Origin: an uncultured virus (IMG/VR IMGVR_UViG_3300022924_000206)
Lineage: Duplodnaviria > Heunggongvirae > Uroviricota > Caudoviricetes
Length of the DNA stretch: 64,000 nucleotides
Virus record (IMG/VR): IMGVR_UViG_3300022924_000206
Strand: one strand, 5' to 3'
The position numbers and the translations under genes were made by a program. This document shows, piece after piece, positions 494 to 17,232 of this stretch. Under the pieces are notes generated by a model. That model was not told the DNA's origin, did not search any database, and worked only from the letters and a program-made list of their open reading frames with translations. Numbering within the stretch: position 1 is the stretch's first letter; every line of letters begins with the position of its first letter.

Positions 494-622
494 TTTTCAA
501 TGCTGAAACGGCAGACAGCCAGGTCGCTAGGTAGTCATGGATGCGAATGCAAAAATACCGAAAACCAGGGGCGGAAGACGCATAAATCTCCCGTATTGTG
601 GGTTCGAATCCCACTTGGAAAG
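494..622 (+). ncRNA. expanded tRNA-like RNA (Leu-type D arm, long central insert)
   Basis: TTTTCAA/TTGGAAA acceptor, GCTGAAACGGCAGACAGC D arm, GTGGGTTCGAATCCCAC T arm; no canonical anticodon arm. Confidence 0.5.
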
Positions 623-627
623 CACAT

Positions 628-700
628 GCAGTAGTAGCTCAGTTGGTAGAGCGGTACCTTGCCAAGGTACAGGTCGCGGGTTCGAGCCCCGTCTACTGCT
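628..700 (+). tRNA. tRNA-Gly(GCC)
   Basis: Canonical cloverleaf, loop TTGCCAA. Confidence 0.95.
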
Positions 701-802
701 CTAGGATAGGCGGTCAGTTGGCCGATACCATCGGGAAATATCCCCTCATAATAAACTGTGAGAAGTGACAATGCCCAGGTGTCGCAAACCCGTAATCCTT
801 TT

Positions 803-884
803 GGTGGGTTAATCCGTAGGGGTAGCGGGACTGGCTGTAAACCAGTTGTCATTGGCTCGGGGGGTTCGACTCCCTCACCCACCA
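803..884 (+). tRNA. tRNA-Tyr(GUA)
   Basis: Cloverleaf with long variable arm, loop CTGTAAA. Confidence 0.93.
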
Positions 885-980
885 CAAGCGAAGCATCGCT
901 GTTCCCTGGGACGGAATAAAAATGCTTGCGTTCATGGAGTGCTTCCCCGCTAGGGAAGGTCCCCACTCCATGGATAATAT

Positions 981-1053
981 GGCCCCATCGTATAGAGGCC
1001 TAGTACGTCGCCCTCTCACGGCGGTAACACGGGTTCGAATCCCGTTGGGGTCA
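981..1053 (+). tRNA. tRNA-Glu(CUC)
   Basis: Cloverleaf, loop CTCTCAC. Confidence 0.95.
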
Positions 1054-1364
1054 CTAGGAAATAGGCAAAAGCTGAGGTTCGAATCCTCATTGGTGCACAT
1101 GCCCTCGGCAGAGGGTTCGGGGAGTCGAGAGCCCGGATATTTCCTTTGAATTCTTCAAATTGACCATGCAAATTTGAAGTGTATGTGAAGCATGGCGGAA
1201 CCCTACCGGAGACAAAAGCAAGGGTTGAGGCTTCGGCCAATAGACTAGCGGCTTCCAGGTACCAACCTCTTCAAAGGTGGATGCTGCACTATGTTCTTAC
1301 GATTGAAGCGAGTAGGAATCTCCTGACCCGGGAGGCGAGAAGGCTGCGAATAGTGCCAGGGTAT

Positions 1365-1438
1365 CGGGATATGGCGCAGCTTGGTAGCGCGCTTGACTGG
1401 GGGTCAAGAGGTCGCAAGTTCAAATCTTGTTATCCCGA
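1365..1438 (+). tRNA. tRNA-Pro(GGG)
   Basis: Cloverleaf, loop CTGGGGG. Confidence 0.95.
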
Positions 1439-1448
1439 CGAAAATCAT

Positions 1449-1537
1449 GGGGGTATGCATTAGCAGCCGGCAGAGGTGTTACGAGCCTCATTCGATGAGC
1501 AATCATTGTTTGGTGAAAGTCCTGTCTGCCTCCACCA
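1449..1537 (+). ncRNA. CCA-terminated acceptor-stem RNA without canonical arms
   Basis: GGGGGTA pairs with TGCCTCC, followed by ACCA directly abutting tRNA-Trp. Confidence 0.4.
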
Positions 1538-1611
1538 AGGGGTGTAGCTCAGTTGGCCAGAGTGGCGGTCTCCAAAACCGTAGGTCGCAGGTTCGAATCC
1601 TGTCACCCCTG
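1538..1611 (+). tRNA. tRNA-Trp(CCA)
   Basis: Cloverleaf, loop CTCCAAA. Confidence 0.95.
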
Positions 1612-1749
1612 CAATGAAGAGTCACCTAAGGACTTACGCAAATCTGGACCGACCGTGACGTTGCAACCTCTTCAGAAGCCCTAACCTCTCATGTCTTCCG
1701 TGGATATGTGAGCGACCCAGATGATCGCCGCATGATTGTTAGGCAATAA

Positions 1750-1822
1750 GCGCCTGTAGCTCAATGGATAGAGCACTTGACTACGGATCAAGAGGTTGGG
1801 GGTTCGAGTCCCTTCAGGCGCA
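1750..1822 (+). tRNA. tRNA-Arg(ACG)
   Basis: Cloverleaf, loop CTACGGA. Confidence 0.95.
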
Positions 1823-1986
1823 CAAGCATTAGTGAAACATGGAATCACACCCTTGTAGAGATTGTGGAGTACTACTCAATCTAGTAACCGGCAGAGTCGA
1901 GACCTGTCGCGTGGGAGTCGGGAGGATCGAGCCTCTCATGTGGACATTTGGGTAAATGATGCCCTGCTAAAGCTAAAGATCATTAC

Positions 1987-2085
1987 GTCGAGTTAGTTTA
2001 CAATGGGAACGCCGTGCGGCTAAAAACCGCGAAGCAAAACACTGGAAACAAGCTGGTGAGTGAGGTTCGAATCCTCAACTCGGCA
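1987..2085 (+). tRNA. atypical tRNA, anticodon AAA, long variable region
   Basis: GTCGAGT/ACTCGGC acceptor, TGCGG-CTAAAAA-CCGCG arm, T arm TGAGGTTCGAATCCTCA. Confidence 0.5.
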
Positions 2086-2361
2086 CAGGGGAGAAGATGT
2101 GGATCTTGTACCGGCGTCCACACCCGGTACTCTTCGAGCACACCGTGAAGAAAATGCTGAAAAACTGATCATTTAGTAGGCATTGCTTCGCAAGGAGCTC
2201 ACCGAAGACTGCCCCTGCCAATTCAAAACTTATCGAGAGCTGTGCACTCGCTTTCGATTACTAGATACCTTAGAGAAGTTATTCGGTTGCCGCCGAATAG
2301 TCAGGAACTAAGCGTTTTAGCGAAGTCGTTATCTTCGGGTAAATACAGCCGGCAAGCTGTA

Positions 2362-2431
2362 GTTCTCATGGTAGTAATGGCAGCTGCACATCCGTCAAGG
2401 GTGAGGTGAGGTTCGAATCCTCTGAGAAACA
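2362..2431 (+). ncRNA. tRNA-like RNA with 5-nt loop centred on UCA
   Basis: CATCC-GTCAA-GGGTG arm, T arm GAGGTTCGAATCCTC, bulged acceptor stem. Confidence 0.45.
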
Positions 2432-2537
2432 CAATTTATGAAGACCGGGCTGTCGCTATAGAGACGAGCCGGAGCCCATGAAAATATGGAGAAATCCCCC
2501 GTACAGTCGGGCGTGGCGTGCAACGAAAAAGTCCCAA

Positions 2538-2612
2538 TGGGGTATGGTGTAATTGGCAACACGGAGGTTTCTGGTACCTTTGTTCTTGGTTCGAGTCCAG
2601 GTACCCCAGCCA
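2538..2612 (+). tRNA. tRNA-Gln(CUG)
   Basis: Cloverleaf, loop TTCTGGT, CCA encoded. Confidence 0.95.
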
Positions 2613-2718
2613 TACCGTTCTAAGGTTCTGGCTCGCAGTCTAATCGAGTTTTACAATCGTCTCACGCGATTGTTCACACTCATTTGACAGCCCTTCAGAT
2701 CGCCTCAGAGCGCTATAT

Positions 2719-2800
2719 GGATAGTAAGCGAATGGTTAGCAGGCTCCCTGGAAAGGAGTTGCCGCGAAAGCGGTTGCGGGTTCGAGTCCCGTGCTATCCG
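2719..2800 (+). tRNA. tRNA-Ser(GGA)
   Basis: Loop CTGGAAA, long variable arm, G73. Confidence 0.93.
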
Positions 2801-2864
2801 CTCTTTTTGTGTTGTTAGAGAACTTTATTGATAAAAGTTATCAATAACAACGAATGGAGCAAAA

Positions 2865-3167
2865 ATGACAAACATTTTACACACGCTTGTGGGGTTAGCT
2901 CAGGATGACCATGACCACTCTCACGAGCATGTAGAAAACGTTTGGGTAGATGCTTGGTCAATCTTCACGGATCCCGGCCACTTTATCGCGGAAGTTTGGT
3001 TCACCTTAGTCATTGACTTCATCGTCATTTTCTTGGGCTACCAGATCATCGTGAAAAAGTTCGTGATTCCTCGTCTAAAGAAGCAGCTTCACCAGGAGCT
3101 CGATGCTGAACTAGGCGTAAAGCACGAAGAGGGCGACGAGCACCCCGAGACAAAAACGGTTTCATAA
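2865..3167 (+). CDS. His-rich single-pass membrane protein
   Basis: GGAG RBS, hydrophobic segment, HDHSHEH tract. Confidence 0.75.
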   Translation: MTNILHTLVGLAQDDHDHSHEHVENVWVDAWSIFTDPGHFIAEVWFTLVIDFIVIFLGYQIIVKKFVIPRLKKQLHQELDAELGVKHEEGDEHPETKTVS

Positions 3168-3306
3168 ACTCCTGAAATCCGTCCTCAAAATCCCGCAAAT
3201 GATTGTGCAATCACGAGCGGCGGTTCCACATGAAACCGAAAATCGGCACTACTCAAGATTGAATGCACTAGATCTAGGGTGAGGCGGATCAGGCCGATTC
3301 ATGTAT

Positions 3307-3380
3307 GATTCTGTAGCTCAGTTTGGTGGAGCGCCGTGGATTGCCTGCGGAGGACATAGGTTCAAATCCTATTGGAATCA
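3307..3380 (+). tRNA. atypical tRNA-like RNA (loop GATTGCC, centre UUG)
   Basis: Normal acceptor, D and T arms; anticodon loop lacks U33/R37. Confidence 0.55.
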
Positions 3381-3445
3381 CTTACCCCTATCCGCTGTTT
3401 GCCACCGCTTTTCGAGGCAAGGGTATTTCATGGTAGGGGGTTCTT

Positions 3446-3518
3446 GGCTCTGTAGCTCAGTTGGTAGAGCGCTCGTCTGAAGAATGAGAGGTCACCGGAT
3501 CAACGCCGGTCGGAGCCA
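3446..3518 (+). tRNA. tRNA-Phe(GAA)
   Basis: Cloverleaf, loop CTGAAGA; T loop variant ATCAACG. Confidence 0.9.
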
Positions 3519-3702
3519 CGAGTAGCGCAAGCTACTGTGAGGGTAGTATGCAGCATCCCCTAGACCATAACCGAAGCGCGGGTAGCGTCGAAGGCAGCCG
3601 TTGAATGTACTAGAAAGAGCTTGGTACATCATTCGAAGACACGTAAGATCTTCACTCGGGTACTTCAGGTTAGCTTCGGCTATGATCCTGAAGTACCCAC
3701 CA

Positions 3703-3775
3703 GGGCCTTTAGCTCAATTGGTAGAGCACTTGTCTGGCAGACAAGAGGTTACGGGTTCAAGTCCCGTAAGGTCCA
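3703..3775 (+). tRNA. tRNA-Ala(GGC)
   Basis: Cloverleaf, G3:U70, loop CTGGCAG. Confidence 0.95.
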
Positions 3776-3946
3776 CGGGCTATCTAGTCGAAGATGGCTG
3801 CTAAAGGACTATAGTGTCCTGAACCTAAATCTTCGAGGATGAGAGGTAATCAGCACCTTCGGGTGAAGTTTGTGACGAGTCGACGCGCTGCAAACATCTG
3901 GGAACATGGTTGGATAGCACGCTCGTGAGGGAAAGCGAGCAAAAAT

Positions 3947-4033
3947 GGAATCGTGACCGAGAGGCCGATGGTGTCACCCTGCTAAGGTGATGTAGGTGAA
4001 AGCCTACCGTGGGTTCGAATCCCACCGATTCCG
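3947..4033 (+). tRNA. tRNA-Ser(GCU)
   Basis: Loop CTGCTAA, long variable arm. Confidence 0.95.
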
Positions 4034-4066
4034 CCTTATATATTCCATCTAAATTAAACAGAAGAG

Positions 4067-4360: not shown

Positions 4361-4640
4361 GTAGGTAAATCCCATGAAAGAAAGAAAACATTGTTCTCTT
4401 TGTAAAAGAAGAAAAATAGGACTTTGGATTCTCACTACGGATTGTCGCAATTGCCGAGCTCAGTGGAGAGCTTTCTACGCAGGTAGAACCCAAGTTTCTC
4501 CACTCATGCGAGCTATAACGGCAGAGCAGATAGAGAATTTCTCGATAAAAAGAGATAAATAAGCAACTGATTTTGAATCTCTTATGACATTCGATTTCGG
4601 GACTTCTCAATTACAGGTCCGTCCAGTTGAGAGGTCATTT

Positions 4641-5058: not shown

Positions 5059-5078
5059 CTTCATTTTTACAAACACTT

Positions 5079-5151
5079 CGCGGTGTAGCTCAGTTGGTAG
5101 AGCAACGGACTCATAAACCGTAGGTCGACAGTTCAATCCTGTCCATCGCGA
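5079..5151 (+). tRNA. tRNA-Met/Ile2(CAU)
   Basis: Cloverleaf, loop CTCATAA, paired 1-72. Confidence 0.9.
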
Positions 5152-5242
5152 CTGTCTTCAGCGTGGCATTATCATAGCCAACTCCCCCAGGACGGAAACG
5201 TAGCAAGGGTAACTGTGCTCTAGTGGGTGCGCTGAAGGCTTT

Positions 5243-5325
5243 GCCGAAATGGCGGAATGGCAGACGCGCTGGCCTCAGAAGTCAGTGTCCTCAAGGACGT
5301 GTGGGTTCAAGTCCCATTTTCGGCA
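5243..5325 (+). tRNA. tRNA-Leu(CAG)
   Basis: Leu D arm, loop CTCAGAA, long variable arm. Confidence 0.95.
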
Positions 5326-7360: not shown

Positions 7361-7539
7361 CGCATAATAATTGAATACGGCATAAACAATCAATCGGTTT
7401 CGCGCGGAACCTTTTGAGGAATGATGCTAGAAGCTCTTATAAGCACCGCAGCGCGTTATGGCGGCGGTGAGGTACACGGTGACTGAAAAAGTGGCGGTTC
7501 GATTCCGGCCTACGAAAGGGTTGATGAAAATTGATCTTG

Positions 7540-7610
7540 TTATCTATAGCTTAAATGGAAAAGCTGCGGTCGACAACCCGTGAACGTCGGTTCGATTCCG
7601 GCTAGGTAAA
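7540..7610 (+). tRNA. atypical tRNA-like RNA (8-nt loop TCGACAAC)
   Basis: TTATCTA/TAGGTAA acceptor, D and T arms present. Confidence 0.45.
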
Positions 7611-7751
7611 CTACCCAAGTAAACCATGGCGGTGAGTTCTCTCCTCGGAGGCGATTCTAGTGAAGTACCGATGCTAACCATGGGCGGGATGCAATTGACC
7701 GTAGAGCTTCGGCTCTCGACTCCCTCGGGCAGGCTTAAAAACTTCACACAT

Positions 7752-8721: not shown

Positions 8722-9337
8722 CAGTCTCAATCCCAGTGAGTCAAAGATGGTCGTTCGAACGAAGAGGTGCTGGGAGTTCTCCTCGCCGCGGCCATACCAA
8801 ATTTTCAAAAGTTTGATGGAAATCTTAGGTAGCTCCTAAGATGGATATCTGAGTAAGGCACCGACGTTTACAGGCGCCTCCTAGATGGTGTACGGTAAAA
8901 AACCATCTCTCAACTAGGGTCAGAGGCCCGGAAGCACGAAGAGGTAGCCCTCCAAGTGAAGCAAACCGGTGGCCGTAGCGGAAAGAGTTGCATTTTTGGC
9001 GAAGCGGTAAAAGCCCGTGTAGGAGAGCTTCTGGCTCTCGCAAGAATTGTGCTTCTCCAAGATTTAAGGGCGTTTCTCGATTGCACCGCGTTCCGGGCGA
9101 AATCGAACATTCCGGGGAATGGCTACTGTGATGGCATCAGTAGCGTTGGTAGGCCACTAACGAATCGAAAATTCCCGTGGGTTCAAATCCCACTCCCGGA
9201 GCGAGAGGTTGTGACCGTTCGAATCGGTTAGGCTCCGGATGCTTACGGTTCGACTCCGCCTTGAATTTGGTTGGCAAAGGGTAGGACGGGCCTGTCCTCA
9301 ACTTCGTGCTTCCTTCAGTAAAATGAAGGTTTATATC

Positions 9338-10192: not shown

Positions 10193-10283
10193 CACGGAGT
10201 AGAGAAGTTAGGCATCTCGCTGGGCTCATAACCCAGAGGCTTTCATACGCGCATAAAAGGTTCAAATCCTGCCTCCGTTTCCA
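10193..10283 (+). tRNA. initiator-like tRNA-Met(CAU) with extra bases before/in T stem
   Basis: Unpaired C1, CTGGG-CTCATAA-CCCAG arm, CCA encoded. Confidence 0.7.
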
Positions 10284-10301
10284 CTTAACCCACCTAAATA
10301 T

Positions 10302-10580
10302 TTGAAAGGAGTACCGATGATTCAGCTTCCCACCCTTTGTGGAACACGAGAAAGTGCAGCTCAGTTGTTCACCGGTATCTCCAACGAAGACTCGCCATTA
10401 ATCTCTTTAATCGGTGTCCAAGCAACAGCTCAAGGTTTTGTTGACGAGCTCTGTAAACAGCTCATTGACCGGCGAATCAATGTCGTAACTTTTTTGCAGC
10501 CAAGCGAAAAGTTCCTTGAGTACTTTATGAGAGCTCATCGACTTCGCTCCGCTAAATTCTCGGTCTCCTGGCGGGACTGA
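10302..10580 (+). CDS. STAS-like (DUF4325-like) protein
   Basis: GTRESA...GVQATAQGFVDEL pattern; likely ATG start near 10317. Confidence 0.6.
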   Translation: MKGVPMIQLPTLCGTRESAAQLFTGISNEDSPLISLIGVQATAQGFVDELCKQLIDRRINVVTFLQPSEKFLEYFMRAHRLRSAKFSVSWRD

Positions 10581-10583
10581 CTT

Positions 10584-10769
10584 ACCTCTTTAGCTCAAAC
10601 GGAAGAGCGGCCCGAAAACGATGGGGCGTCATTTCAGGAACGTTGCGGATGCACCGGGATCGAGCCAGCTGCTCAAAAGGTAGCTGGTTGGGGAACCTTA
10701 GCCCTCGACAGGGAAGCGCGTTTTCGAAGCCTGGATACTTAGGTGTGGGTTCAAGTCCCATGAGGGGTA
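10584..10769 (+). ncRNA. 186-nt expanded tRNA-like RNA
   Basis: ACCTCTT/GAGGGGT acceptor, D arm, T arm; insert closed by CGAAAACG/CGTTTTCG. Confidence 0.6.
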
Positions 10770-10952
10770 CGGATTATGGGGCGACCAAGGGATGGAAGAA
10801 AGCCTTACCTTAGAGTAAAGCACTCTCGGTTCGATGCCGGGGTAATCCACGTAGTAAGCCTCTAGCTTTTCCGGCATTGCGTCCGGCGGACTGGTGAACC
10901 GAGCGTTAGAGAGAGCCCGCAGTCAATCCTACTGTCTACAAATGGATAACAA

Positions 10953-11089
10953 GCCGCCTTAGCTCAGTGGTAGAGCACTTCCTTGGTTTCCTCGAAAGAG
11001 GATAAGGCAAGGCCTTAGTTTGGTTAACAGAATAAACGCTGTTAGCCTTGCTAAGGAAGAGGTCGTGGGTTCAAGTCCCACAGGTGGCT
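10953..11089 (+). tRNA. tRNA-Thr(GGU) with 65-nt insertion in the anticodon loop
   Basis: Removing 10987-11051 gives a canonical 72-nt tRNA with CTTCC-TTGGTAA-GGAAG arm. Confidence 0.8.
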
Positions 11090-11142
11090 CGGGGTTTGTT
11101 TGCACATTTCATCCAGCGTCGTCAAAGCAAAATGTGCGTTTC

Positions 11143-11216
11143 GCCACCTTAGCTCAGCCTGGCAGAGCAGCTAACTAGTAATTAGCAGGTCATCAGTTCA
11201 AATCTGATAGGTGGCT
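11143..11216 (+). tRNA. tRNA-Thr(AGU)
   Basis: Cloverleaf, loop CTAGTAA. Confidence 0.9.
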
Positions 11217-11217
11217 C

Positions 11218-11291
11218 CGCGGGGTAGACCGGAGGCGGTTCCGGCCTGGCCTCATAAGCCAAGTACGAGGGTTCGATTCCCTCTCCCGCAA
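11218..11291 (+). tRNA. tRNA-Met(CAU), C1:A72 mismatch
   Basis: Loop CTCATAA, atypical D arm. Confidence 0.8.
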
Positions 11292-11498
11292 CTCGTCGGC
11301 ACCTCCGACTTTGGTAGTTAGGCACCTAAGATAAGAACCTAGCATGGTGGCTCCCATTGAAAGAGCAGGGAAGCACCTCCCGTAAAATTGTGTATACCTC
11401 GGCGGGAGAGCTCGTGTTAGAGGATGCGAACGGTGCGTGCAAGTGCTTCGAAGAGGTTCGAAAAGTCTTGCTACACTTTCTTTTAGGGATAGGAAAAT

Positions 11499-11798
11499 AT
11501 GAGCGCCAGTAAGATTGATGTTTTAGTCTTTTCCTTTGAGCAGGATTATGGCTCTCGTGAAGATTGTTCGGTGTTCTATTGCCGACCGCTCGTTGTACTC
11601 GCGCCTGAATCAGAGCGAGCATCTATCAAAAAGATTATTGAAGACACCATTGAATTTGAATCGAAGCCATCTGAATGGGTACCTGAAGCAGGAACCTACA
11701 ATGAAGAATTCGATGATGAAGCTCTTCTCCAAAACATCCTTGCAGCCGGTTATCCAGCTGCATGGAGTGGAATCGACTCTTATGTAAATGAAGGTTGA
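11499..11798 (+). CDS. hypothetical acidic protein
   Basis: AGGA RBS, 99-aa ORF. Confidence 0.7.
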   Translation: MSASKIDVLVFSFEQDYGSREDCSVFYCRPLVVLAPESERASIKKIIEDTIEFESKPSEWVPEAGTYNEEFDDEALLQNILAAGYPAAWSGIDSYVNEG

Positions 11799-11846
11799 TT
11801 CTTGTAATACCCAGGTGAGGTTTATAGCGAACGCTCCTCACCGCCT

Positions 11847-11919
11847 GGGGCCTTAACTCAGTTGGTAGAGTGCCTGCTTTGCAAGCAGGATGTCAGGAGT
11901 TCGAATCTCCTAGGCTCCA
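11847..11919 (+). tRNA. tRNA-Ala(UGC)
   Basis: Cloverleaf, G3:U70, loop TTTGCAA. Confidence 0.95.
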
Positions 11920-12065
11920 CGCTTTATAGCACGGAGAGCTTTCCAGGCTCTCGATTCGAGGCAATGGCCGTGCTCACCCTCGTACTGCACTTCTTTCATG
12001 CTGGAAACATGATGCAGATAAAGTACCCGGCGGTGGAATGTCAGGAAGTTCTCTCCATTGCCCCA

Positions 12066-12140
12066 GATGTTGTAGCTCAATTGGTTAGAGCGCCCGGCCG
12101 AATTGCTGGGTTGTTGTAGGTTCGAGTCCTGCCAATGTCA
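12066..12140 (+). tRNA. atypical tRNA-like RNA (6-bp stem, loop CGAATT)
   Basis: Normal D and T arms, non-canonical anticodon loop. Confidence 0.5.
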
Positions 12141-12294
12141 CGATAACACCGCGATCTAGAACAGATCGCGCCCGTATGAGGGTTATTGCGACCCTCCCCT
12201 TGCCTTAGAGGGAACGGACAGCGAGAGCTGATTCAGAGAAGGGATTCTCTGGTGCTACCTCGGTAGTAAGAAGAGGTTTGGTGTGTTATCACAT

Positions 12295-12366
12295 TGAGGT
12301 ATAGTGTAATTGGCAGCACGAGAGATTCTGATCCTCTTAGTCTTGGTTCGAGTCCAGGTACCTCAG
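12295..12366 (+). tRNA. tRNA-Gln(CUG), second copy
   Basis: Cloverleaf, loop TTCTGAT. Confidence 0.9.
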
Positions 12367-12527
12367 CGACTATCCGCCCTTCACCGGGTAGAGCCTCATA
12401 TTTCGTATGGTCCGTTAGGGGTGAAATAAGACTCGTCCCGAAGCCAGCCGTAGAACCCAAGGGGCCGTTGACGATTCGGAAACGAAGAGTCGCGGGGGAT
12501 CACTGAGGTTGTCTTTCGGATAGGCAT

Positions 12528-12600
12528 GGCCCGTTAGTTTAGTTGGTAGAACGCAAGGTTCTCAACCTTGAGGTCGCCGGTTCAAGTCCGGTACGGGTCA
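12528..12600 (+). tRNA. tRNA-Glu(CUC), second copy
   Basis: Cloverleaf, loop TTCTCAA. Confidence 0.88.
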
Positions 12601-12647
12601 CGAACGATAGCTCTAAGCTCATCGTTTTCAGTAGTAAAATTTTCTAG

Positions 12648-12720
12648 GGCCCCATCGTTTAGTGGCCTAGGACGCAAGGCTTTCATCCTTGTAGCACGGG
12701 TTCGAATCCCGTTGGGGTCA
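12648..12720 (+). tRNA. tRNA-Glu(UUC)
   Basis: Cloverleaf, loop CTTTCAT. Confidence 0.93.
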
Positions 12721-12771
12721 CGGCTGGTAAAGCTCATTTTAAGCTTTTTGCTTATTCTGGATAAATAAAAT

Positions 12772-12843
12772 GGCTCCTTAGCTCAATGGTAGAGCAGTGC
12801 GTTGTCTGCGCGAAGGTCGCGGGTTCGAATCCCGTAGGGGTCG
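12772..12843 (+). tRNA. tRNA-Asp(GUC), atypical loop
   Basis: Loop TTGTCTG (U at 37), G73. Confidence 0.75.
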
Positions 12844-12917
12844 CAGTGAGATTAGACACAATTGAGAAGATCAGCGATTGCAGTTGCGGATTAGGTAAAT
12901 TGAAAGTTGAAATCATA

Positions 12918-13028
12918 GTAGCGATGGTGAAATTATCACAGTCTAAAACGCGAAATCAAAAGTAGTCTGCAAACTCTTTGACTAGCGGGATGACCATTCA
13001 GTTACGGGTTCAAGTCCCGTTTGCTATG
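12918..13028 (+). ncRNA. 111-nt expanded tRNA-like RNA
   Basis: GTAGCGA/TTGCTAT acceptor, short D arm, T arm ACGGGTTCAAGTCCCGT. Confidence 0.45.
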
Positions 13029-13031
13029 CAT

Positions 13032-13105
13032 GGCCCTATAGCTCAGTTGGTTAGAGCGCTACCCTGTCACGGTAGAGGTCGCCGGTTCAAGTCCGGTTGG
13101 GGTCG
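13032..13105 (+). tRNA. tRNA-Asp(GUC)
   Basis: Cloverleaf, loop CTGTCAC. Confidence 0.95.
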
Positions 13106-13335
13106 CAAAGTTAGAGAGCAATCGCTAGCTTTACATGATTTAGATAAACTGCTGGGTTTTGCAGAGCGAGCCATAGGGCTCGTGGGCTTGATCACCTAGA
13201 GGTTCAAATCCTCGTCCAAATCCGAAGAGAATGCTGAAGGTGCACCTTTCATCATTTGAATCCGCTTTTTATGCTCGAGATGAGTGGCGCAAGTTAACAC
13301 GTCACAAACTAAGAGCCAGTCTTGCGTTACAAGAC

Positions 13336-13405
13336 TCAATAGTAGCATATTCGGCAAATGCGCCTTCGAAAGAGGAGACTACGGGTTCGATTCCCGTCTA
13401 TTGAA
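13336..13405 (+). ncRNA. tRNA-like RNA with GAAA-capped anticodon arm
   Basis: TCAATAG/CTATTGA acceptor, D and T arms, CCTTCGAAAGAGG arm. Confidence 0.5.
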
Positions 13406-13524
13406 CGGTTACTGCGGTAACTTAGTGGTAAGATAACTTCACCGCTAAAAACTCTTACGAGAGGACAGAGAAATGACAGGATACGATTAACCTTCCTTAA
13501 CTGACATAGTTAAGGAGGTGAAAT

Positions 13525-13743
13525 ATGTTCATCAAAACAAATAAAAAGACCAAGAAGTATCCTGGTCTAGACAGCTCTCCCTGGAGAGTCGTCACCTACT
13601 CAGGACAAGAGTTAGGTCGCTATGAAACATTCAAAGATGAGAAGACTAAAAAGGTCTCTAGAGTCTGGATGATTCGCTGGAGCGGCTTCCGAACTGCAAA
13701 CGCTGCAGCTCGAGCTCTTGGAGGAGTAGCTGTCCGAGCGTAA
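13525..13743 (+). CDS. small basic hypothetical protein
   Basis: Strong AAGGAGGT RBS. Confidence 0.75.
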   Translation: MFIKTNKKTKKYPGLDSSPWRVVTYSGQELGRYETFKDEKTKKVSRVWMIRWSGFRTANAAARALGGVAVRA

Positions 13744-13991
13744 ACCGCGAGGATTTGCAAATCGCTACTAATAAAAAGTCGTAATGCGGTTCAGTGTTCT
13801 GCAATCCCGTGAGGCAGGACTACAAACTTCCAGTCAGTGTGTACAGCTGATTGAATCCCACCGAACGAGTCTGAAGTGGTTAAACTAAGGTGAAAGAGGC
13901 TACGGTGTCTGGGTCGCTTATACCAGAACGTGAATGGTCAACCTACGCAAGCTGGTGACTCCTTTGCCGCGCCGGGTTAGCGTGCGGTTAC

Positions 13992-14062
13992 GGCTTTCTA
14001 GCTCAAATGCAGAGCGACCGGGGTGATCCGGAGGGTTCTTGGTTCAAATCCAAGGGAAGCCA
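13992..14062 (+). tRNA. atypical tRNA-like RNA (6-nt loop GGTGAT)
   Basis: GGCTTTC/GGAAGCC acceptor, D and T arms. Confidence 0.5.
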
Positions 14063-14078
14063 CATGATATTAAAAACC

Positions 14079-14453
14079 ATGGCAAAAGACAAACACAACT
14101 ATGATAGTTGGTCAGATGAAGACATTGAAAGATGGCTAAAACATCATCAGACCGACAGAGGTAATTTGTCGTTCAGCCGCATCGGACCCTATTCCACTTG
14201 GCCCGATGTAATTTTCGGACTCATGATAGCTCTTTTTATCATCGTCGGTTTAGGTATCACTTTGTTCTTCTGGGCAGCTGATTCTCTTTGGTCAATGGAG
14301 CAAATTTTAACTCTGCTCTACTTTGATTCATGGCCTTTTCTTGCGGCTGTAGTTTTTGGCCTCTATACCATAGGACATAGAGTTGAGGATATTAGTAAGT
14401 ATCACGGCCTAAAGAAAGTCCAAAAATCACGTCTAAGGATAGCAAATGCCTAA
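14079..14453 (+). CDS. two-TM membrane protein
   Basis: Two hydrophobic segments; start moved downstream of the tRNA-like element. Confidence 0.7.
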   Translation: MAKDKHNYDSWSDEDIERWLKHHQTDRGNLSFSRIGPYSTWPDVIFGLMIALFIIVGLGITLFFWAADSLWSMEQILTLLYFDSWPFLAAVVFGLYTIGHRVEDISKYHGLKKVQKSRLRIANA

Positions 14454-14712
14454 CGATCCCCTTAACATCGGTCTAACACCGACTAAGGAAGAACGTCACT
14501 CGATTTATCGTGAAGGTAAAGTTTTAGTAGTGACTTTCGAAACCGAAAATGAACACATCTGTTACGCTTTAGATGACTCTGGCACAGTATGGGATTTTTG
14601 TTCCATCGGTGATGCCGGAATCGTGAACTTTCAAGATGAGCTCTCTGAAGATGAGATAACAGTCGCACTGGGTGTTTTGGAAGATTTCAGAATCACTTTA
14701 GAGAATTCCTAA
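14446..14712 (+). CDS. hypothetical protein
   Basis: Overlaps upstream stop, AAGGA RBS. Confidence 0.7.
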   Translation: MPNDPLNIGLTPTKEERHSIYREGKVLVVTFETENEHICYALDDSGTVWDFCSIGDAGIVNFQDELSEDEITVALGVLEDFRITLENS

Positions 14713-14722
14713 GAGTCCACCT

Positions 14723-14806
14723 GGAAGGTAGGCGAATGGTTAGCAAGCCGCCTCGAAAGCGGTCGCCGGCGAGAGTCGGTTGCGGGTTCGACCCCCGTGC
14801 CTTCCG
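14723..14806 (+). tRNA. tRNA-Ser(CGA)
   Basis: Loop CTCGAAA, long variable arm. Confidence 0.92.
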
Positions 14807-14920
14807 CATAACTAAATAAGCTACTATTCAGAAGCTGAATTATATAATTCAAAATTTGAATAGGTTGAATGCAGATAAGATCGCCCCGATTATCTGGTTC
14901 CATAAGTACCAGGGGTTCAT

Positions 14921-15004
14921 GGTGCCTTGGCCGAGTGGTTAGGCGACGGTCTGCAAAACCGTTAGTAGGGAAACCTCACACGGGTTCGAATCCCGTAGGC
15001 ACCT
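14921..15004 (+). tRNA. tRNA-Cys(GCA) with long variable arm
   Basis: Loop CTGCAAA, U73, extra AGG-GAAA-CCT hairpin. Confidence 0.88.
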
Positions 15005-15018
15005 CGCAACACTTTTAT

Positions 15019-15101
15019 GGCGTCTTGGCCGAGAGGATAGGCACCGGCCTGCAAAGCCGTACGGAGGAAACTCCACACCGGTTCGAATCCGGTAGGCGCC
15101 T
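15019..15101 (+). tRNA. tRNA-Cys(GCA) with long variable arm, second copy
   Basis: Loop CTGCAAA, U73, extra GGAG-GAAA-CTCC hairpin. Confidence 0.88.
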
Positions 15102-15351
15102 CACACGAAAATCATTAATTTGGAGTTTGACATGGCCGAAAGAATGTACGGAAAAATTCACGGACCTCAGTGCGATTGCAACATTGAGCAACATGTATCA
15201 GGCGCTACCGAAAAGTGTAACAAGCGTTACGGAATAAAGCGACAGCGATCCATCGAGAAGATGAAGCTAAAGAAAGAAATTCGTACCTCCGTTCGATAAA
15301 TATTACAACTCGTGATTAGAGTTGATAGTATACAACATAATTAAAAACAAT

Positions 15352-15424
15352 GCGAAAATAGCTCAGTTGGTAGAGTGCGACCTTGCCAAGGTCGATGTCG
15401 CGGGTTCGAGTCCCGTTTTTCGCT
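15352..15424 (+). tRNA. tRNA-Gly(GCC), second copy
   Basis: Cloverleaf, loop TTGCCAA. Confidence 0.95.
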
Positions 15425-15507
15425 CACGGAGTAGAGCAGTTAGGTAGCTCGCTGGGCCCATAACCCAGAGGTCGCACAAAGTGGTTCAAATCCCGCCTCC
15501 GTAACCA
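15425..15507 (+). tRNA. initiator-like tRNA-Met(CAU) with bulged T stem
   Basis: C1:A72, CTGGG-CCCATAA-CCCAG, CCA encoded. Confidence 0.7.
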
Positions 15508-15644
15508 AGTAGTTTACAGCAATGTCCACAGCCCCAACTTGCTGACGCCCTCGGGCGGAACTTAAGCCTGAGGCCGCAATCTCAGGAGTAGCGGAAACGG
15601 CGTTCATCGTCCAAAGATGAGTAGCGCCTAACTAAGGGCCGCCA

Positions 15645-15717
15645 GCGAAAATAACTCAGTTGGTAGAGTGCAACCTTCCCAAGGTTGATGCCGCGGGTTC
15701 GAGCCCCGTTTTTCGCT
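15645..15717 (+). tRNA. tRNA-Gly(CCC)
   Basis: Cloverleaf, loop TTCCCAA. Confidence 0.95.
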
Positions 15718-15764
15718 CATTAGAAATAGTTTGAACGGCTTAAACTAATCTAAGAGGTAAAATT

Positions 15765-16259
15765 ATGGCTAAGTATCACGTAAATCCACTCACGGGAGAC
15801 GCTAGACCTTGTAAAGCTGCTTATTCCCCTTGCCCTTACGGTTCGAGAGTGACTCACTTTGATTCAAAAGCTGCAGCTGAAGAATTTTATGCTGAGGCAA
15901 GGAACGATTCGACTAAATTTCTTTATGAAAAAGAACCCGGGCGTGTAAAACCTATTCGTGATGGATATCTTCAAGGAAAAATGCACCCTACTGATTTTCG
16001 AGTAGGGGACATTATCCGGGATAAGGTCACTTACGGAAACACAACTAATTGGAGCTTTAGGGAGATCACTGCAGTTTCCCATAGCGAACATGGAGTGACT
16101 GTTACTCAACAGGTTATTTCAGAATATGATTGGAAGCCTACGGATTTCCAAAAAGAAAGACAGCCTAACGGTTATACATCTTCATTTCCGAATAACAATG
16201 ATAAAGCAACTGGGCTTCGATTTATTTTAAGAGAAAAACCAGCTGGGTGGAAAGCCTAG
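15765..16259 (+). CDS. HCCH-module family protein
   Basis: N-terminus YHVNPLTG...CKA...CPYG...HF. Confidence 0.8.
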   Translation: MAKYHVNPLTGDARPCKAAYSPCPYGSRVTHFDSKAAAEEFYAEARNDSTKFLYEKEPGRVKPIRDGYLQGKMHPTDFRVGDIIRDKVTYGNTTNWSFREITAVSHSEHGVTVTQQVISEYDWKPTDFQKERQPNGYTSSFPNNNDKATGLRFILREKPAGWKA

Positions 16260-16265
16260 AAAAAT

Positions 16266-16370
16266 ACAGAAATAGCTCAATGGTAGAGCACGGCCACTAA
16301 GGCCGGGTATAAGCAAGATATAGTGTTGCAAATCACTTTAAAAGCGCAGGTTCGATTCCTGTTTTCTGTA
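16266..16370 (+). ncRNA. tRNA-like RNA, 5-nt loop centred on CUA, long variable region
   Basis: ACAGAAA/TTTCTGT acceptor, CGGCC-ACTAA-GGCCG arm, T arm. Confidence 0.55.
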
Positions 16371-16498
16371 CGGTGAAGAGTTGTAAGTATACCTGAAGAG
16401 ACGCCTAGGGAACTTTCCGAAACATGAGGGACAGATTGCAAGCTGTTTCTGCGTGAGGCTCAGGCCGCATTTAGTACTCTATGTGCCTGAACCGTCAT

Positions 16499-16572
16499 GG
16501 GTATATAGTTCAGTTGGTTAGAGCACTTCGCTGATAACGAAGAAGTCGGTGGTTCAAGTCCACCTATACCCA
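16499..16572 (+). tRNA. tRNA-Ile(GAU)
   Basis: Cloverleaf, loop CTGATAA. Confidence 0.95.
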
Positions 16573-16573
16573 C

Positions 16574-16645
16574 GCTTCCATAGCTCAATGGTAGAGCAGG
16601 ACATTCTAAACGTTCGTGTTCTCGGTTCGAGTCCGGGTGGAGGCG
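16574..16645 (+). tRNA. amber suppressor tRNA (CUA)
   Basis: Canonical spacing puts CTA at 34-36 in loop TTCTAAA; A31-C39 mismatch. Confidence 0.8.
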
Positions 16646-16650
16646 CTTAT

Positions 16651-16722
16651 GCACCTGTGGCGCAGTGGTAGCGCGCTTCCTTGACATGGAAGAGGTCGGC
16701 AGTTCGAACCTGCCCAGGTGCA
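16651..16722 (+). tRNA. tRNA-Val(GAC)
   Basis: Cloverleaf, loop TTGACAT. Confidence 0.95.
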
Positions 16723-17010
16723 CGGCGTTACCAGTAGAACGCGCCGGGGCCACTACGAAGGTTCTCTAACATCGGCTGATGAAGGCATTAATCATGGGTT
16801 CGTAGCTCATCTTTTGCTGGAAATTCTGGAAAAACCGGATTGGTATCCGGGGTAAGAAGTGGAGTTCGAGTCTCCGAGACGTTCGGTTCGATCCCGGGCG
16901 ACGAGCGTAGGAACGCACTTACCACATGGGCTGTGGTCAACCAGGGTGTAGGTTGCTAGCCGAGCGAAGCTGGTTCGAGTCCAGTACAGTCCACACCGCG
17001 GACGGTAACC

Positions 17011-17232
17011 GAAGAGGAAGCCGGTCATCAACGAATCAGTACGGGCTTGCCGTGGGCTTGAGGCTGATCGTAGCAGTTTTAGCCGACGTTACAGGCAAAA
17101 ACCGAGGGTTGCGTCTCGATAACGCTCCTGTTTAGGCAGCTTGGGCATCTGGAGAGTCCAAGGTTTTAGCTTCGGCTATCTCGCGGAACCTGCCAAGAGT
17201 TCCGCTTGTGGGTTCGAACCCCATCCTTTTCA
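17011..17232 (+). ncRNA. 222-nt RNA closed by acceptor-like stem and T arm
   Basis: GAAGAGG/CCTTTTC + A, T arm GTGGGTTCGAACCCCAT. Confidence 0.4.

What the first reader, a model, noticed from the sequence alone, without database searches (positions are those of the whole stretch)
494..17232. Series of expanded tRNA-scaffold RNAs carrying large internal domains
Seen: 494-622, 10584-10769, 12918-13028, 16266-16370, 16805-16907 (two T-loop arms) and 17011-17232 keep an acceptor stem and T arm, usually with a D arm. They replace or extend the anticodon/variable region with roughly 30-150 extra nt of structured sequence. Inference: tRNA termini used as a processing and stability chassis (RNase P and CCA substrates) for cargo RNAs.
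Basis: partly seen in the sequence, partly recalled or inferred. Interest (0 to 1): 0.7.

Follow-up and report, generated by a model that had tools for sequence, protein, structure and literature searches.

The report
tRNA-shaped non-decoding RNAs in phage tRNA operon
A huge phage's tRNA gene cluster carries several tRNA-shaped RNAs that cannot read codons, and one of them belongs to a widespread family, apparently not yet described, that sits in tRNA gene arrays of phages and bacteria, some of them next to an RNA-repair ligase gene.

Summary
All six loci have, at the stated coordinates, a 7-bp acceptor stem closing onto a canonical T arm, with 30-150 extra nt in between. They lie in a + strand array of 52 tRNAs plus tmRNA, SRP, GOLLD and an RNase P-like RNA in an uncultured huge phage.

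Evidence differs by locus.

- **10584-10769 ("B")** belongs to a large family not matched by any Rfam 15 model. I found 58 members: Streptomyces phages, IMG/VR phage contigs, and Myxococcota and Proteobacteria genomes. Covariation is strong (30 of 31 pairs). Two blocks are invariant by selection, and a non-anticodon loop may pair back onto the expanded variable-arm domain. There is one copy per phage genome. About half the loci have tRNAs within 400 nt, and in 6 of 35 bacterial loci an rtcB gene ends just upstream.
- **16266-16370 and 16805-16907** (plus unflagged 16928-16993) are conserved in one related 727-kb contig with compensatory changes.
- **494-622, 12918-13028 and 17011-17232** have no homologs in what I could search, so pseudogenes are not excluded.

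The "tRNA chassis" reading is partly supported. Processing is untested, and in B the tRNA body looks like part of the function. B's function is unknown. My best guess is a tRNA mimic tied to tRNA damage and repair.

The parts
494..622 (+). Element A: tRNA-shaped RNA, 129 nt. Acceptor 494-500/615-621, D-like hairpin 503-514, about 83 nt of inserted sequence, T arm 598-614, discriminator G, no CCA.
   Evidence: Sequence. MFE recovers acceptor and T arm but z is only -0.73. No homolog found. The B-family model scores it 24.7 bits, like ordinary tRNAs.
10584..10769 (+). Element B: member (long form) of the widespread tRNA-shaped family. Acceptor 10584-10590/10762-10768. D arm 10593-10608. Hairpin in the anticodon-arm position 10610-10627 with loop GAAAACGAUG. 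Long-range helix 10633-10638/10730-10735 enclosing the core. Core blocks 10643-10656 and 10710-10720. Inner helix 10660-10664/10704-10708 with two hairpins. Candidate pseudoknot partner 10719-10725. T arm 10745-10761.
   Evidence: Model R1 scores it 130.8 bits. Covariation. Homologs.
12918..13028 (+). Element C: tRNA-shaped RNA, 111 nt. Acceptor 12918-12924/13021-13027, D-like hairpin 12927-12939 without GG, T arm 13004-13020. It ends 3 nt before tRNA-Asp.
   Evidence: Rfam tRNA 28.2 bits, against a cut-off of 29. Sequence. z -1.28. No homolog.
16266..16370 (+). Element D: tRNA-shaped RNA, 105 nt. Canonical acceptor, D and T arms. Hairpin 16291-16305 (5 bp, 5-nt loop) in the anticodon-arm position. 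40-nt variable region 16306-16345.
   Evidence: Rfam tRNA 48.8 bits. Homolog L028:186-290 is 87% identical. 0 of 27 pairs are broken and 2 are compensatory, including the loop-closing pair. z -2.87.
16805..16907 (+). Element E: acceptor-like helix 16805-16811/16900-16906 with an A-C mismatch, and two T arms at 16860-16876 and 16881-16899.
   Evidence: Sequence. A homolog lies in L028 at about 592-740, with a longer interior. T arm 1 has a compensatory A-U to G-C change. The A-C mismatch is kept in L028 (read). z -0.51.
17011..17232 (+). Element F: 222-nt RNA closed by acceptor 17011-17017/17225-17231, with T arm 17208-17224 and several internal hairpins. No clear D arm.
   Evidence: Sequence. 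MFE closes the acceptor, z -2.22. No Rfam hit. No homolog. Absent from the syntenic place in L028.
16928..16993 (+). Unflagged short tRNA-like element (66 nt) between E and F: 8-bp closing helix and T arm 16969-16985.
   Evidence: 88% identical to L028:762-827, with 2 compensatory T-stem pairs. Rfam tRNA-Sec gives only 22.5 bits.
10953..11089 (+). Unflagged tRNA-Thr(GGU) gene interrupted by a 65-nt structured insert (10988-11052) right after the anticodon.
   Evidence: Rfam tRNA 57 bits. Aligned with the uninterrupted tRNA-Thr(GGU) at L007:13-86. z -5.27.
9111..9201 (+). Unflagged 91-nt tRNA-shaped element: acceptor, an 8-bp hairpin in place of the D arm, a hairpin with a 5-nt loop, and T arm 9177-9193.
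   Evidence: z -3.10. No homolog sought beyond.
1987..2085 (+). Unflagged 99-nt tRNA-shaped element with an expanded variable region.
   Evidence: z -1.95.
21213..21443 (+). RNase P RNA-like gene, a candidate processing enzyme for the array.
   Evidence: Rfam RNaseP_arch 67.7 bits (cut-off 84), E 1.6e-18, with CR-I and CR-V motifs aligned. Homologs in L028 and L005.
33582..34967 (+). CCA-adding-enzyme-type nucleotidyltransferase gene.
   Evidence: Pfam PolyA_pol 66.2 bits and PolyA_pol_RNAbd 36 bits.

Best explanation
The flagged loci are genes for tRNA-shaped RNAs that do not decode. They are embedded in the phage's + strand tRNA operon.

They keep what the tRNA-processing machinery recognises: a 7-bp acceptor stem stacked on a T arm, usually a D arm that can form the elbow, a discriminator base, and no encoded CCA. 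The anticodon loop has been replaced and the variable region expanded to 40-125 nt or more.

Inferred life cycle (not shown): they are co-transcribed with the tRNAs and cut at the 5' end by RNase P, either the host's or the phage's own RNase P-like RNA. They are then trimmed, given CCA by the phage nucleotidyltransferase, and persist as stable RNAs.

Shown for B: it belongs to a family found from actinophages to Myxococcota and Proteobacteria, usually inside tRNA arrays. The expanded domain is a covarying 6-bp helix that encloses two sequence blocks, UUGCGGAUGCACCG and AGGGAAGCGCG. The hairpin in the anticodon-arm position carries a conserved AAAACG loop complementary to CGUUUU just 3' of the second block.

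My mechanistic guess for B (inference): a tRNA mimic whose "anticodon" is locked onto its own variable-arm domain. It would act in the tRNA-damage and repair setting of mobile tRNA arrays, as a binding partner, decoy or sensor for a tRNA-directed protein.

D, E and 16928-16993 are lineage-restricted RNAs of the same general kind. A, C and F may be the same, or may be decayed tRNA genes.
For: **Anatomy.** See the observation check.

**Size of the B family.**
- Model R1 found members in 58 of 60 sources at E <= 1e-7. It also hit 6 ordinary tRNAs; L099 and L140 fell below the threshold.
- The sources came from INPHARED blastn (10 and 19 records), from a pattern scan of IMG/VR (19 loci) and from a scan of species genomes (35 loci).

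**B covariation.**
- On 14 hand-checked sequences, 94.8% of cells are paired against 78.6% in shuffles (0 of 500 reach it). 23 of 36 pairs changed on both sides. Slid controls give 28-48%.
- On the 64-row model-fitted alignment, 93.6% against 62.9%, and 30 of 31 pairs changed on both sides. This alignment leans towards the model and includes the 6 tRNA rows.

**B pseudoknot.** The outermost pair occurs as G-C (window, L093, L133), A-U (L097, L106) and U-A (L109). L095 has GUAAACG:CGUUUAC.

**B copy number and context.**
- One copy in each of the 4 B-bearing IMG/VR records that were searched whole.
- tRNAs lie within 400 nt in 17 of 35 bacterial and 11 of 19 viral loci.
- An RtcB C-terminus lies upstream on the same strand in 6 of 35 bacterial loci, and an N-terminus lies downstream in 1. 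Pfam RtcB scores 418 bits for L145:6300-7706.
- In Streptomyces phage Gilson the element sits after tRNA-Leu, with RNA ligase and polynucleotide kinase genes 1.3-3 kb downstream.

**Selection in this lineage.** Against contig L028, B is 84% and D plus its 3' spacer 78% identical over the aligned stretches, compared with 58-60% for coding DNA and 73.6% for GOLLD. D alone is 87% identical.

**Not decoding.**
- D's 5-nt loop differs at 3 of 5 positions between the two homologs, while its closing pair covaries from C-G to U-A.
- B's loop is 8-10 nt without U33.

**Processing genes.**
Against: - No RNA evidence of any kind. Transcripts, ends, CCA and stability are all inferred.
- A, C and F have no homolog in anything I could search, and their folding z-scores are unremarkable (-0.73, -1.28, -2.22). 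Acceptor closure alone is expected by chance for about one T arm in five.
- D, E and 16928-16993 rest on a single relative, so the counts are two-sequence comparisons.
- E needs an A-C mismatch and a 6-bp T stem to fit.
- For B, the two core blocks were the search pattern. Their invariance among the 54 pattern-derived loci is therefore by construction. Only the blastn-derived phage sequences speak to it, and Francob and Comrade do vary (UUGCAGAAGCACCG).
- The pseudoknot is mostly invariant sequence. It is weak in Gilson (3 bp), and my shuffle control for it was not meaningful, because loops were mis-delimited in the long bacterial forms.
- The rtcB link holds for only 6-7 of 35 loci within a 400-nt flank. 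Two of the three bacterial loci examined over 12 kb (G003, G004) show no RtcB.
- rtcB next to long tRNA arrays is already known (PMC8421152), so the link may be to the array and not to B.
- The discriminator base varies (A, G, U), which argues against one fixed aminoacyl-tRNA synthetase identity.
Confidence: 0.6

Rival explanations
1. Decaying tRNA genes. The array turns over by duplication. These are duplicates that picked up insertions and lost the anticodon loop. Their acceptor and T arms persist only because decay is recent.
For: - A, C and F have no detectable homolog.
- F is absent from the syntenic place in L028.
- z-scores of A, C and E lie within shuffles.
- Seven further T-arm hairpins lack any closing stem, as fragments would.
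- Three of 26 array genes were judged pseudogenes in Anabaena (PMC8421152, passage seen).
Against: - Excluded for B by 58 members with covariation across phyla.
- Unlikely for D: 87% identity against about 59% for coding DNA, and 0 of 27 pairs broken.
- Unlikely for 16928-16993.
- The inserted parts of B, D and 10953-11089 are themselves well structured.
Confidence: 0.25
2. Intron-containing tRNA precursors. The extra sequence is removed (self-cleavage or nuclease, then RtcB-type ligation) to give ordinary decoding tRNAs.
For: - One clear case exists nearby. tRNA-Thr(GGU) at 10953-11089 carries a 65-nt insert exactly after nt 36, while L007 has the same tRNA uninterrupted.
- RtcB is the tRNA-splicing ligase elsewhere (established knowledge) and is linked to some B loci.
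- The window encodes RNA-repair-type domains (HAD_SAK_2, Metallophos).
Against: - For the six flagged loci, no 7-nt anticodon loop with U33 emerges after removing the expansion. ARAGORN's intron-mode calls for B, D and 1987 need forced stems.
- In B the expansion is in the variable region, and the loop pairs with it.
- No group I intron or self-cleaving ribozyme model matches at E <= 1.
- A hammerhead-like string after D is not conserved in L028 (read).
Confidence: 0.08
3. Pure punctuation. The tRNA-like ends serve only as RNase P and RNase Z cleavage signals that cut a long transcript into pieces, as tRNAs do in mitochondrial transcripts. The interior has no function of its own.
For: - T-arm hairpins cluster at 16800-17330 between tRNAs and ORFs.
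- A and C abut the next tRNA by 5 and 3 nt.
- The phage has its own RNase P-like RNA.
Against: - A minimal acceptor-T hairpin would do for that purpose.
- The interior of B holds the most conserved sequence of the molecule: blastn first found the phage homologs through the interior alone (window 10643-10723).
- D's variable region is nearly invariant against L028.
Confidence: 0.05
4. Integration scars. The elements are copies of a tRNA 3' end (T arm plus acceptor strand) left by site-specific insertion of mobile DNA. Earlier agents of this scan found such scars in other genomes.
For: - Earlier notes e1-2041327 and e1-814282 describe such scars.
- Some T arms here have no 5' partner.
Against: - The T arms and 3' acceptor strands are not copies of a neighbouring tRNA's end. 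In a self-blastn of the window (E <= 0.01), A, B, E and 16928-16993 matched only themselves; C and D also gave an exact 19-20-nt match to a tRNA's T or D arm, and F a 77% match over 44 nt.
- Both acceptor strands covary in B (7 of 7 pairs changed on both sides).
- No integrase was seen among the ORFs scanned.
Confidence: 0.02

Closest known systems
Phage T4 stable RNAs 'species 1' and 'species 2' (rnaC, rnaD) in the T4 tRNA gene cluster (recalled; no call retrieved them, and PMC2330249 searched does not mention them)
   Same: Small stable RNAs of unknown function, encoded among phage tRNA genes, co-transcribed with them, and reported to depend on tRNA-type processing.
   Different: I made no sequence or structure comparison. 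B's conserved core and its spread to bacteria have no counterpart that I know of in T4.
tmRNA (Rfam RF00023)
   Same: Acceptor stem plus T arm at the termini, with a large internal domain replacing the anticodon arm. A true tmRNA sits in the same array (23780-24139).
   Different: - No element reaches the model. The best hit is 14.3 bits on A's T arm.
- None has G3-U70 (read).
- B and D keep a D arm and a hairpin in the anticodon-arm position, and expand the variable region instead.
YrlA, the bacterial Y RNA-like tRNA mimic (Rfam RF02553; PMC4201824, passages read)
   Same: A non-decoding tRNA mimic with D and T arms. It is found in bacteria and phages. The M. smegmatis form is cut by RNase P and receives CCA. 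In Salmonella it is encoded in an operon with rtcB (recalled).
   Different: - YrlA is permuted: its termini lie in the Ro60-binding stem and the 'acceptor' is a closed stem-loop.
- Here the termini form the acceptor stem.
- Scores are 24-31 bits against a cut-off of 69, and they fall on ordinary tRNA pairs.
- No TROVE-domain gene was seen among the ORFs scanned.
Class II tRNAs (Leu, Ser, Tyr) and the long-variable-arm tRNAs of this phage clade
   Same: The expansion is at the variable region. The window has Met and Cys tRNAs of 83-91 nt, and relative G001 has Arg, Lys and Ile tRNAs of 91-94 nt. One of these scores 45-52 bits with the B and D models.
   Different: Those keep a 7-nt anticodon loop and a simple hairpin arm. 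B's arm is a 100-nt or larger multi-helix domain with invariant blocks.
[quoted passage not shown]
   Same: B-family members sit in such arrays, some headed by rtcB. The paper reports rtcB co-regulated with the Anabaena array under translational stress.
   Different: The passages I searched (terms tRNA-like, non-canonical, unusual, pseudogene, intron, atypical) mention no conserved non-tRNA member of the arrays. I did not read its supplements.
GOLLD RNA with an embedded tRNA (Rfam RF02032)
   Same: A large structured phage RNA physically merged with a tRNA. One lies in this array (19581-20007, tRNA-Asn inside).
   Different: The topology is inverted. In GOLLD the tRNA is internal to the big RNA. 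Here the big domain is internal to the tRNA shape.

Membership tests
tRNA (Rfam RF00005) | Covariance-model score at or above 29 bits | tested here: inconclusive
   D 48.8 bits (met). C 28.2 bits (just under). A, B, E and F give no hit at E <= 1.
tRNA (decoding) | 7-nt anticodon loop with U33 on a 5-bp stem | tested here: not met
   - D: 5-nt loop ACUAA or ACAGA, with a covarying closing pair.
- B family: 8-10-nt loop AAAACGR without U33.
- A: hairpin with a 4-nt loop in the MFE.
- C, E, F: no such arm found by eye or by ARAGORN.
tmRNA (RF00023) | Model score at or above 47 bits; G3-U70 alanine identity pair | tested here: not met
   The best hit is 14.3 bits, on A's T arm only. Pair 3-70 is U-A, C-G, A-U, A-U, U-A, A-U in A to F (read). 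A tag reading frame was not tested.
YrlA / Y RNA-like (RF02553) | Model score at or above 69 bits; permuted tRNA-like domain with termini in a Ro60-binding stem | tested here: not met
   Best scores are 31.1, 26, 24.4 and 24.1 bits, all spanning tRNA junctions. In these elements the termini form the acceptor stem.
Group I intron in a tRNA gene | Match to the group I intron model; intron of about 200 nt or more in the anticodon loop | tested here: not met
   No intron model hit at E <= 1 in 1-24500. The inserts are 40-150 nt. The size criterion comes from established knowledge.
Self-cleaving ribozymes (hammerhead, twister, pistol, hatchet, HDV-like) | Match to an Rfam ribozyme model | tested here: not met
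   No hit at E <= 1 or E <= 10 in 16780-17700 and 12850-13420. No hit at E <= 0.1 in 12 B-family loci.
B family (defined here by model R1) | R1 score well above ordinary tRNAs (which score 20-40 bits) | tested here: met
   Window 10584-10769 scores 130.8 bits. A scores 24.7 and C 17.4, so they are not members. D, E and F give no hit at E <= 1.
B family | Core blocks UUGCGGAUGCACCG and AGGGAAGCGCG enclosed by a covarying long-range helix, in a tRNA frame | tested here: met
   Blocks at 10643-10656 and 10710-10720. Helix 10633-10638/10730-10735. All 6 pairs of that helix changed on both sides across the family.
B family | Loop AAAACG paired with CGUUUU 3' of the second block (candidate pseudoknot) | tested here: inconclusive
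   7 bp in the window (GAAAACG:CGUUUUC). There are a few compensatory variants (L095, L109), but the sequence is mostly invariant and the pairing is weak in Gilson.
T4 species 1 / species 2 RNAs | Sequence or structure similarity to rnaC or rnaD | not tested
   The resemblance is recalled only. No T4 sequence was fetched.

The most novel reading that the evidence does not exclude
The B family is a new, phylogenetically broad class of tRNA mimic that belongs to mobile tRNA arrays and their RNA-repair modules. Its anticodon-position loop is locked by an intramolecular pseudoknot onto a conserved variable-arm domain. That makes a tRNA-shaped molecule that tRNA-processing enzymes accept but the ribosome cannot use. 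It would act as a decoy, sensor or cofactor in the conflict between tRNA-cleaving toxins and repair by RtcB-type ligases. The other expanded elements in this phage (D, E, F, A, C) would be independent, lineage-specific inventions on the same plan. On this reading, huge-phage tRNA arrays are nurseries of new tRNA-derived regulatory RNAs.
Probability: 0.25. Interest if true: 0.9.

Novelty: new variant of a known kind. Interest (0 to 1): 0.74.

Why it matters
tRNA mimics are few (tmRNA, YrlA, viral tRNA-like ends), and each has taught something about how cells handle tRNA.

This one is a structured RNA of 150-225 nt with strong covariation and two sequence blocks shared by nearly all members found. 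No Rfam 15 model matches it, and 9 literature searches turned up no description. It occurs once per genome in phages of 113 to 424 kb, and in Myxococcota and Proteobacteria.

It is present in cultured Streptomyces phages (Gilson, Moab, Comrade, Francob, pSt2308, GiJojo). There it is unannotated or overlaid by a hypothetical ORF, so it can be tested at the bench directly.

Its position in tRNA arrays, some headed by rtcB, bears on two open questions: what bacterial RtcB works on, and what long tRNA arrays are for.

The window also shows that tRNA arrays of huge phages hold more than tRNAs. It adds an RNase P-like RNA, an interrupted tRNA-Thr and several lineage-specific tRNA-shaped RNAs to the known tmRNA and GOLLD.

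Tried and rejected
**No RNA evidence.**
- No RNA holder was listed for window 10500-17400.

**Genome access.**
- No whole genome is held for the window.
- Metagenome records cannot be searched whole. The L028 contig could therefore not be extended upstream to look for A, C and F.
- A 30-nt L028 string found nothing in IMG/VR.

**Pattern scans of IMG/VR that found nothing:** the D block, an F junction and the 16928 block.

**INPHARED blastn found nothing** for F, D and C. For A it found only a 24-nt T-arm match.

**Other homolog searches.**
- The ORF at 15765-16259 has no relatives in IMG/VR.
- The 398-kb relative G001 (DnaE 56% identical) has no homolog of any insert.

**Ideas dropped.**
- B as a tRNA-Leu derivative. 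Only the T arm and acceptor resemble Leu; the D arm does not.
- B as tRNA-His with an intron (ARAGORN). The stems are forced, and L084 has B next to a normal tRNA-His.
- A hammerhead after D. The CUGAAGAG...CGAAAC string at about 16390-16430 is not kept in L028.
- A or C as divergent B members (24.7 and 17.4 bits).

**Controls that did not help.**
- Folding z-scores do not separate real from doubtful elements.
- My shuffle control for the pseudoknot was uninformative.

**Literature.** Searches, with passages read, gave no description of the B family. Supplements were not opened.

Full report
**Setting.** The window is part of an uncultured huge phage.
- It has a split DnaE-type polymerase, a clamp loader, ribonucleotide reductase, a CCA-adding-type enzyme (33582-34967) and a seryl-tRNA synthetase (59556-60821).
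- DNA runs holding it are leaf-litter metagenomes.
- Its first 24 kb is a + strand RNA gene array. It holds 52 ARAGORN tRNAs and a tmRNA, an SRP RNA, a GOLLD RNA with a tRNA inside and an RNase P-like RNA (67.7 bits, below the 84-bit cut-off, E 1.6e-18, CR-I and CR-V aligned).

**The observation.**
- A, B, C and D also have a hairpin where the D arm should be. E has two T arms. F has none of the D features.
- None encodes CCA.
- A motif scan found 22 T arms outside tRNA genes on the + strand. Eighteen lie within the first 17.4 kb, and only 3 lie on the - strand. The array is therefore truly enriched in extra T arms.
- Nine of the 18 have a perfect 7-bp closure 65-221 nt upstream.
- By my estimate, closure alone arises by chance for about one T arm in five. 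Each locus therefore needs further support.
- Folding z-scores run from -0.5 to -2.9 for the six and do not help. The best-proven element, B, scores only -1.54.

**Finding relatives.**
- IMG/VR gave one distant relative, G001 (398 kb, DnaE 56% identical). It has its own 42-tRNA array but no homolog of any insert.
- A metagenome scan with the DnaE alignment gave 80 loci.
- Only L028, from a 727-kb contig with DnaE 71% identical, reaches into the homologous part of the array.
- L028 holds B (cut at the locus edge), D, E and 16928-16993.
- In L028, B and D are 37 nt apart. In the window they are 5.5 kb apart. The array has been reshuffled while these elements were kept.
- Against L028, coding DNA is 58-60% identical and GOLLD 73.6%. 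B is 84%, and D plus its 3' spacer 78%. D alone is 87%.

**D, E and 16928-16993.**
- D versus L028 shows 14 differences in 106 columns. None of the 27 predicted pairs is broken. Two pairs changed on both sides: pair 1-72 (A-U to G-C) and the pair closing the loop of the anticodon-position hairpin (C-G to U-A). Three pairs changed on one side and stayed paired.
- D's loop is 5 nt and differs at 3 positions between the two phages, so it is not an anticodon loop.
- D's 40-nt variable region is almost invariant.
- 16928-16993 shows 2 compensatory T-stem pairs.
- E keeps both T arms (one compensatory pair) and the same A-C mismatch in its closing helix. Its interior is about 45 nt longer in L028 (read).
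- These are two-sequence comparisons. They argue for selection on structure but cannot define the structures.

**B is a member of a large family.**
- A 20-nt block of B found a full-length homolog in another phage contig, L084.
- blastn of B's interior found 10 Streptomyces phage records. A Gilson query then found 19.
- In those phages the element lies unannotated among tRNA genes. In Moab it lies under a hypothetical ORF.
- There are long forms of about 190 nt (window, L028, L084, Gilson, Moab) and short forms of about 154 nt (Francob, Comrade, pSt2308, GiJojo). They differ by replacement of an inner two-hairpin module with one small hairpin.
- A two-block pattern then found 19 IMG/VR loci. 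It also found 35 loci in species genomes: Myxococcota, Steroidobacteraceae, Burkholderiales, Rhizobiales and one Clostridia MAG.
- The bacterial forms are mostly about 210-220 nt, with extra hairpins.

**B family architecture.**
- A 7-bp acceptor, U8, a D arm with GG in the loop, and a canonical T arm.
- A 4-5-bp hairpin in the anticodon-arm position, with loop AAAACGR.
- A 6-7-bp long-range helix in the variable region. It encloses UUGCGGAUGCACCG, a variable inner hairpin or junction, then AGGGAAGCGCG followed by UUU(U)CC.
- On 14 curated sequences, 94.8% of pair cells are standard pairs against 78.6% in shuffles (0 of 500). 23 of 36 pairs changed on both sides. Slid controls give 28-48%.
- On the 64-row alignment fitted to model R1, the figures are 93.6% against 62.9%, with 30 of 31 pairs changed on both sides. 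That alignment leans towards the model and includes 6 ordinary tRNA rows.
- The two changes seen inside the first block (Francob and Comrade) fall in the loop of a possible 3-bp mini-hairpin, UGC-NNNN-GCA (read).
- The loop AAAACG can pair with CGUUUU. The pairing is 7 bp in the window. The outer pair occurs as G-C, A-U or U-A in different members, and L095 has a U-A swap one step in.
- I call this pairing a candidate pseudoknot, because most of it is invariant and my control for it failed.

**Caveat on the core blocks.** The two blocks were the search pattern for 54 of the loci. Their invariance is therefore partly circular.

**B family context.**
- Model R1 finds one copy in each of 4 B-bearing IMG/VR records searched whole (129, 171 and 424 kb complete, and 61 kb partial). 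It finds none in G001.
- tRNAs lie within 400 nt in 17 of 35 bacterial and 11 of 19 viral loci, often on both sides.
- In 6 of 35 bacterial loci an RtcB gene ends upstream on the same strand within the 400-nt flank. In one more, an RtcB gene starts downstream.
- In Betaproteobacteria bacterium GR16-43 the order is rtcB, B, tRNA-His, tRNA-Lys, tRNA-Asn.
- In several Steroidobacteraceae and gammaproteobacterial loci it is rtcB, tRNA-Trp, tRNA-Leu, B, tRNA-Lys, and so on.
- Two Myxococcota loci examined over 12 kb have neither tRNAs nor RtcB nearby.
- Gilson has RNA ligase and polynucleotide kinase genes 1.3-3 kb downstream.
- rtcB beside long tRNA arrays has been described, and is co-regulated with the Anabaena array under translational stress (PMC8421152, passages read). 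The link may therefore belong to the arrays as a whole.

**What it is not.**
- No Rfam 15 family matches B's interior, in the window or in 12 family loci.
- None of the six is tmRNA: the scores are absent, and none has G3-U70.
- None is YrlA: scores are 24-31 bits against 69, and YrlA has the opposite topology.
- No intron or ribozyme model matches.
- A and C are not divergent B members (24.7 and 17.4 bits, the range of ordinary tRNAs).

**An interrupted tRNA.** 10953-11089 is a tRNA-Thr(GGU) with a 65-nt, very stable insert (z -5.27) right after nt 36. L007 carries the same tRNA uninterrupted. It is the one case where "tRNA plus intron" fits. At 65 nt it is too short for a group I intron (established knowledge). 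How, or whether, it is removed is open.

**A gradient of expansion.**
- The window has Met and Cys tRNAs of 83-91 nt with normal anticodon loops.
- G001 has Arg, Lys and Ile tRNAs of 91-94 nt.
- One of these scores 45-52 bits with the B and D models.
- Variable-arm expansion is therefore common in this clade. It offers a route from tRNA to D-like and B-like RNAs. This step is inference.

**Verdict.**
- B is the substantive result. It is a broadly distributed tRNA-shaped RNA family that I could not find described, with cultured carriers ready for experiments.
- D, E and 16928-16993 are probably functional but lineage-restricted.
- A, C and F remain open between gene and pseudogene.

Noticed in passing
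window 21213-21443 (+); L028 5383-5606; L005 2408-2604: A phage-encoded RNase P RNA-like gene (231 nt). Rfam RNaseP_arch gives 67.7 bits, below the 84-bit cut-off, E 1.6e-18, with CR-I (GAGGAAACUCC) and CR-V (ACAGAAUCCGGGUUA) aligned. It is conserved in two related contigs. One literature search listed nothing about phage RNase P RNA.
   Followed up: partly
window 10953-11089 (insert 10988-11052): tRNA-Thr(GGU) interrupted by a 65-nt highly structured insert after nt 36. The same tRNA is uninterrupted in L007:13-86. The insert is too short for a group I intron.
   Followed up: partly
window 17425-17672 and 21636-21887; L005 2753-3012: A non-coding repeat of about 250 nt (64% identical between the two window copies). 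Each copy follows a tRNA or tRNA-like gene. Part of it (21668-21715) weakly matches 23S rRNA model positions 1097-1144.
   Followed up: no
window 7540-7611 and 12066-12141; 16574-16646: Two tRNAs with 8-nt anticodon loops (4-base anticodons gaca and gaat by ARAGORN) and a tRNA with anticodon CUA (amber suppressor type).
   Followed up: no
window 10193-10283, 14921-15005, 15019-15102, 15424-15506; G001 array (L002, L003): Class I tRNAs (Met, Cys; in G001 Arg, Lys, Ile, His, Val) with long variable arms, 81-94 nt in total.
   Followed up: partly
window 19581-20007: GOLLD RNA (171.8 bits) with tRNA-Asn(AUU) embedded at 19648-19720. The region is 73.6-78% identical to L028 and L005.
   Followed up: no
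window 5151-5245: A small SRP RNA (55.3 bits) wedged exactly between tRNA-Met (ends 5152) and tRNA-Leu (starts 5243), as if processed like a tRNA.
   Followed up: no
window 16371-16497; L028 291-414: The spacer 3' of element D is conserved with L028 (78% over D plus spacer). It contains a hammerhead-like string that is not conserved. It may be another structured RNA.
   Followed up: partly
window 1073-1089, 2407-2423, 7493-7509, 9213-9229, 13198-13214, 17245-17261, 17309-17325: Seven further T-arm hairpins on the + strand with no convincing closing stem. Two of them lie directly after element F.
   Followed up: no
window 20400-21188, 22318-23118: ORFs with a HAD domain of 'Swiss Army Knife' RNA-repair proteins and a calcineurin-like phosphoesterase, inside the RNA gene array.
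   Followed up: no
L086 (Streptomyces phage Moab) 343-675: The annotated hypothetical protein gp140 overlaps the B-family RNA (296-485). It is probably a mis-called ORF.
   Followed up: no
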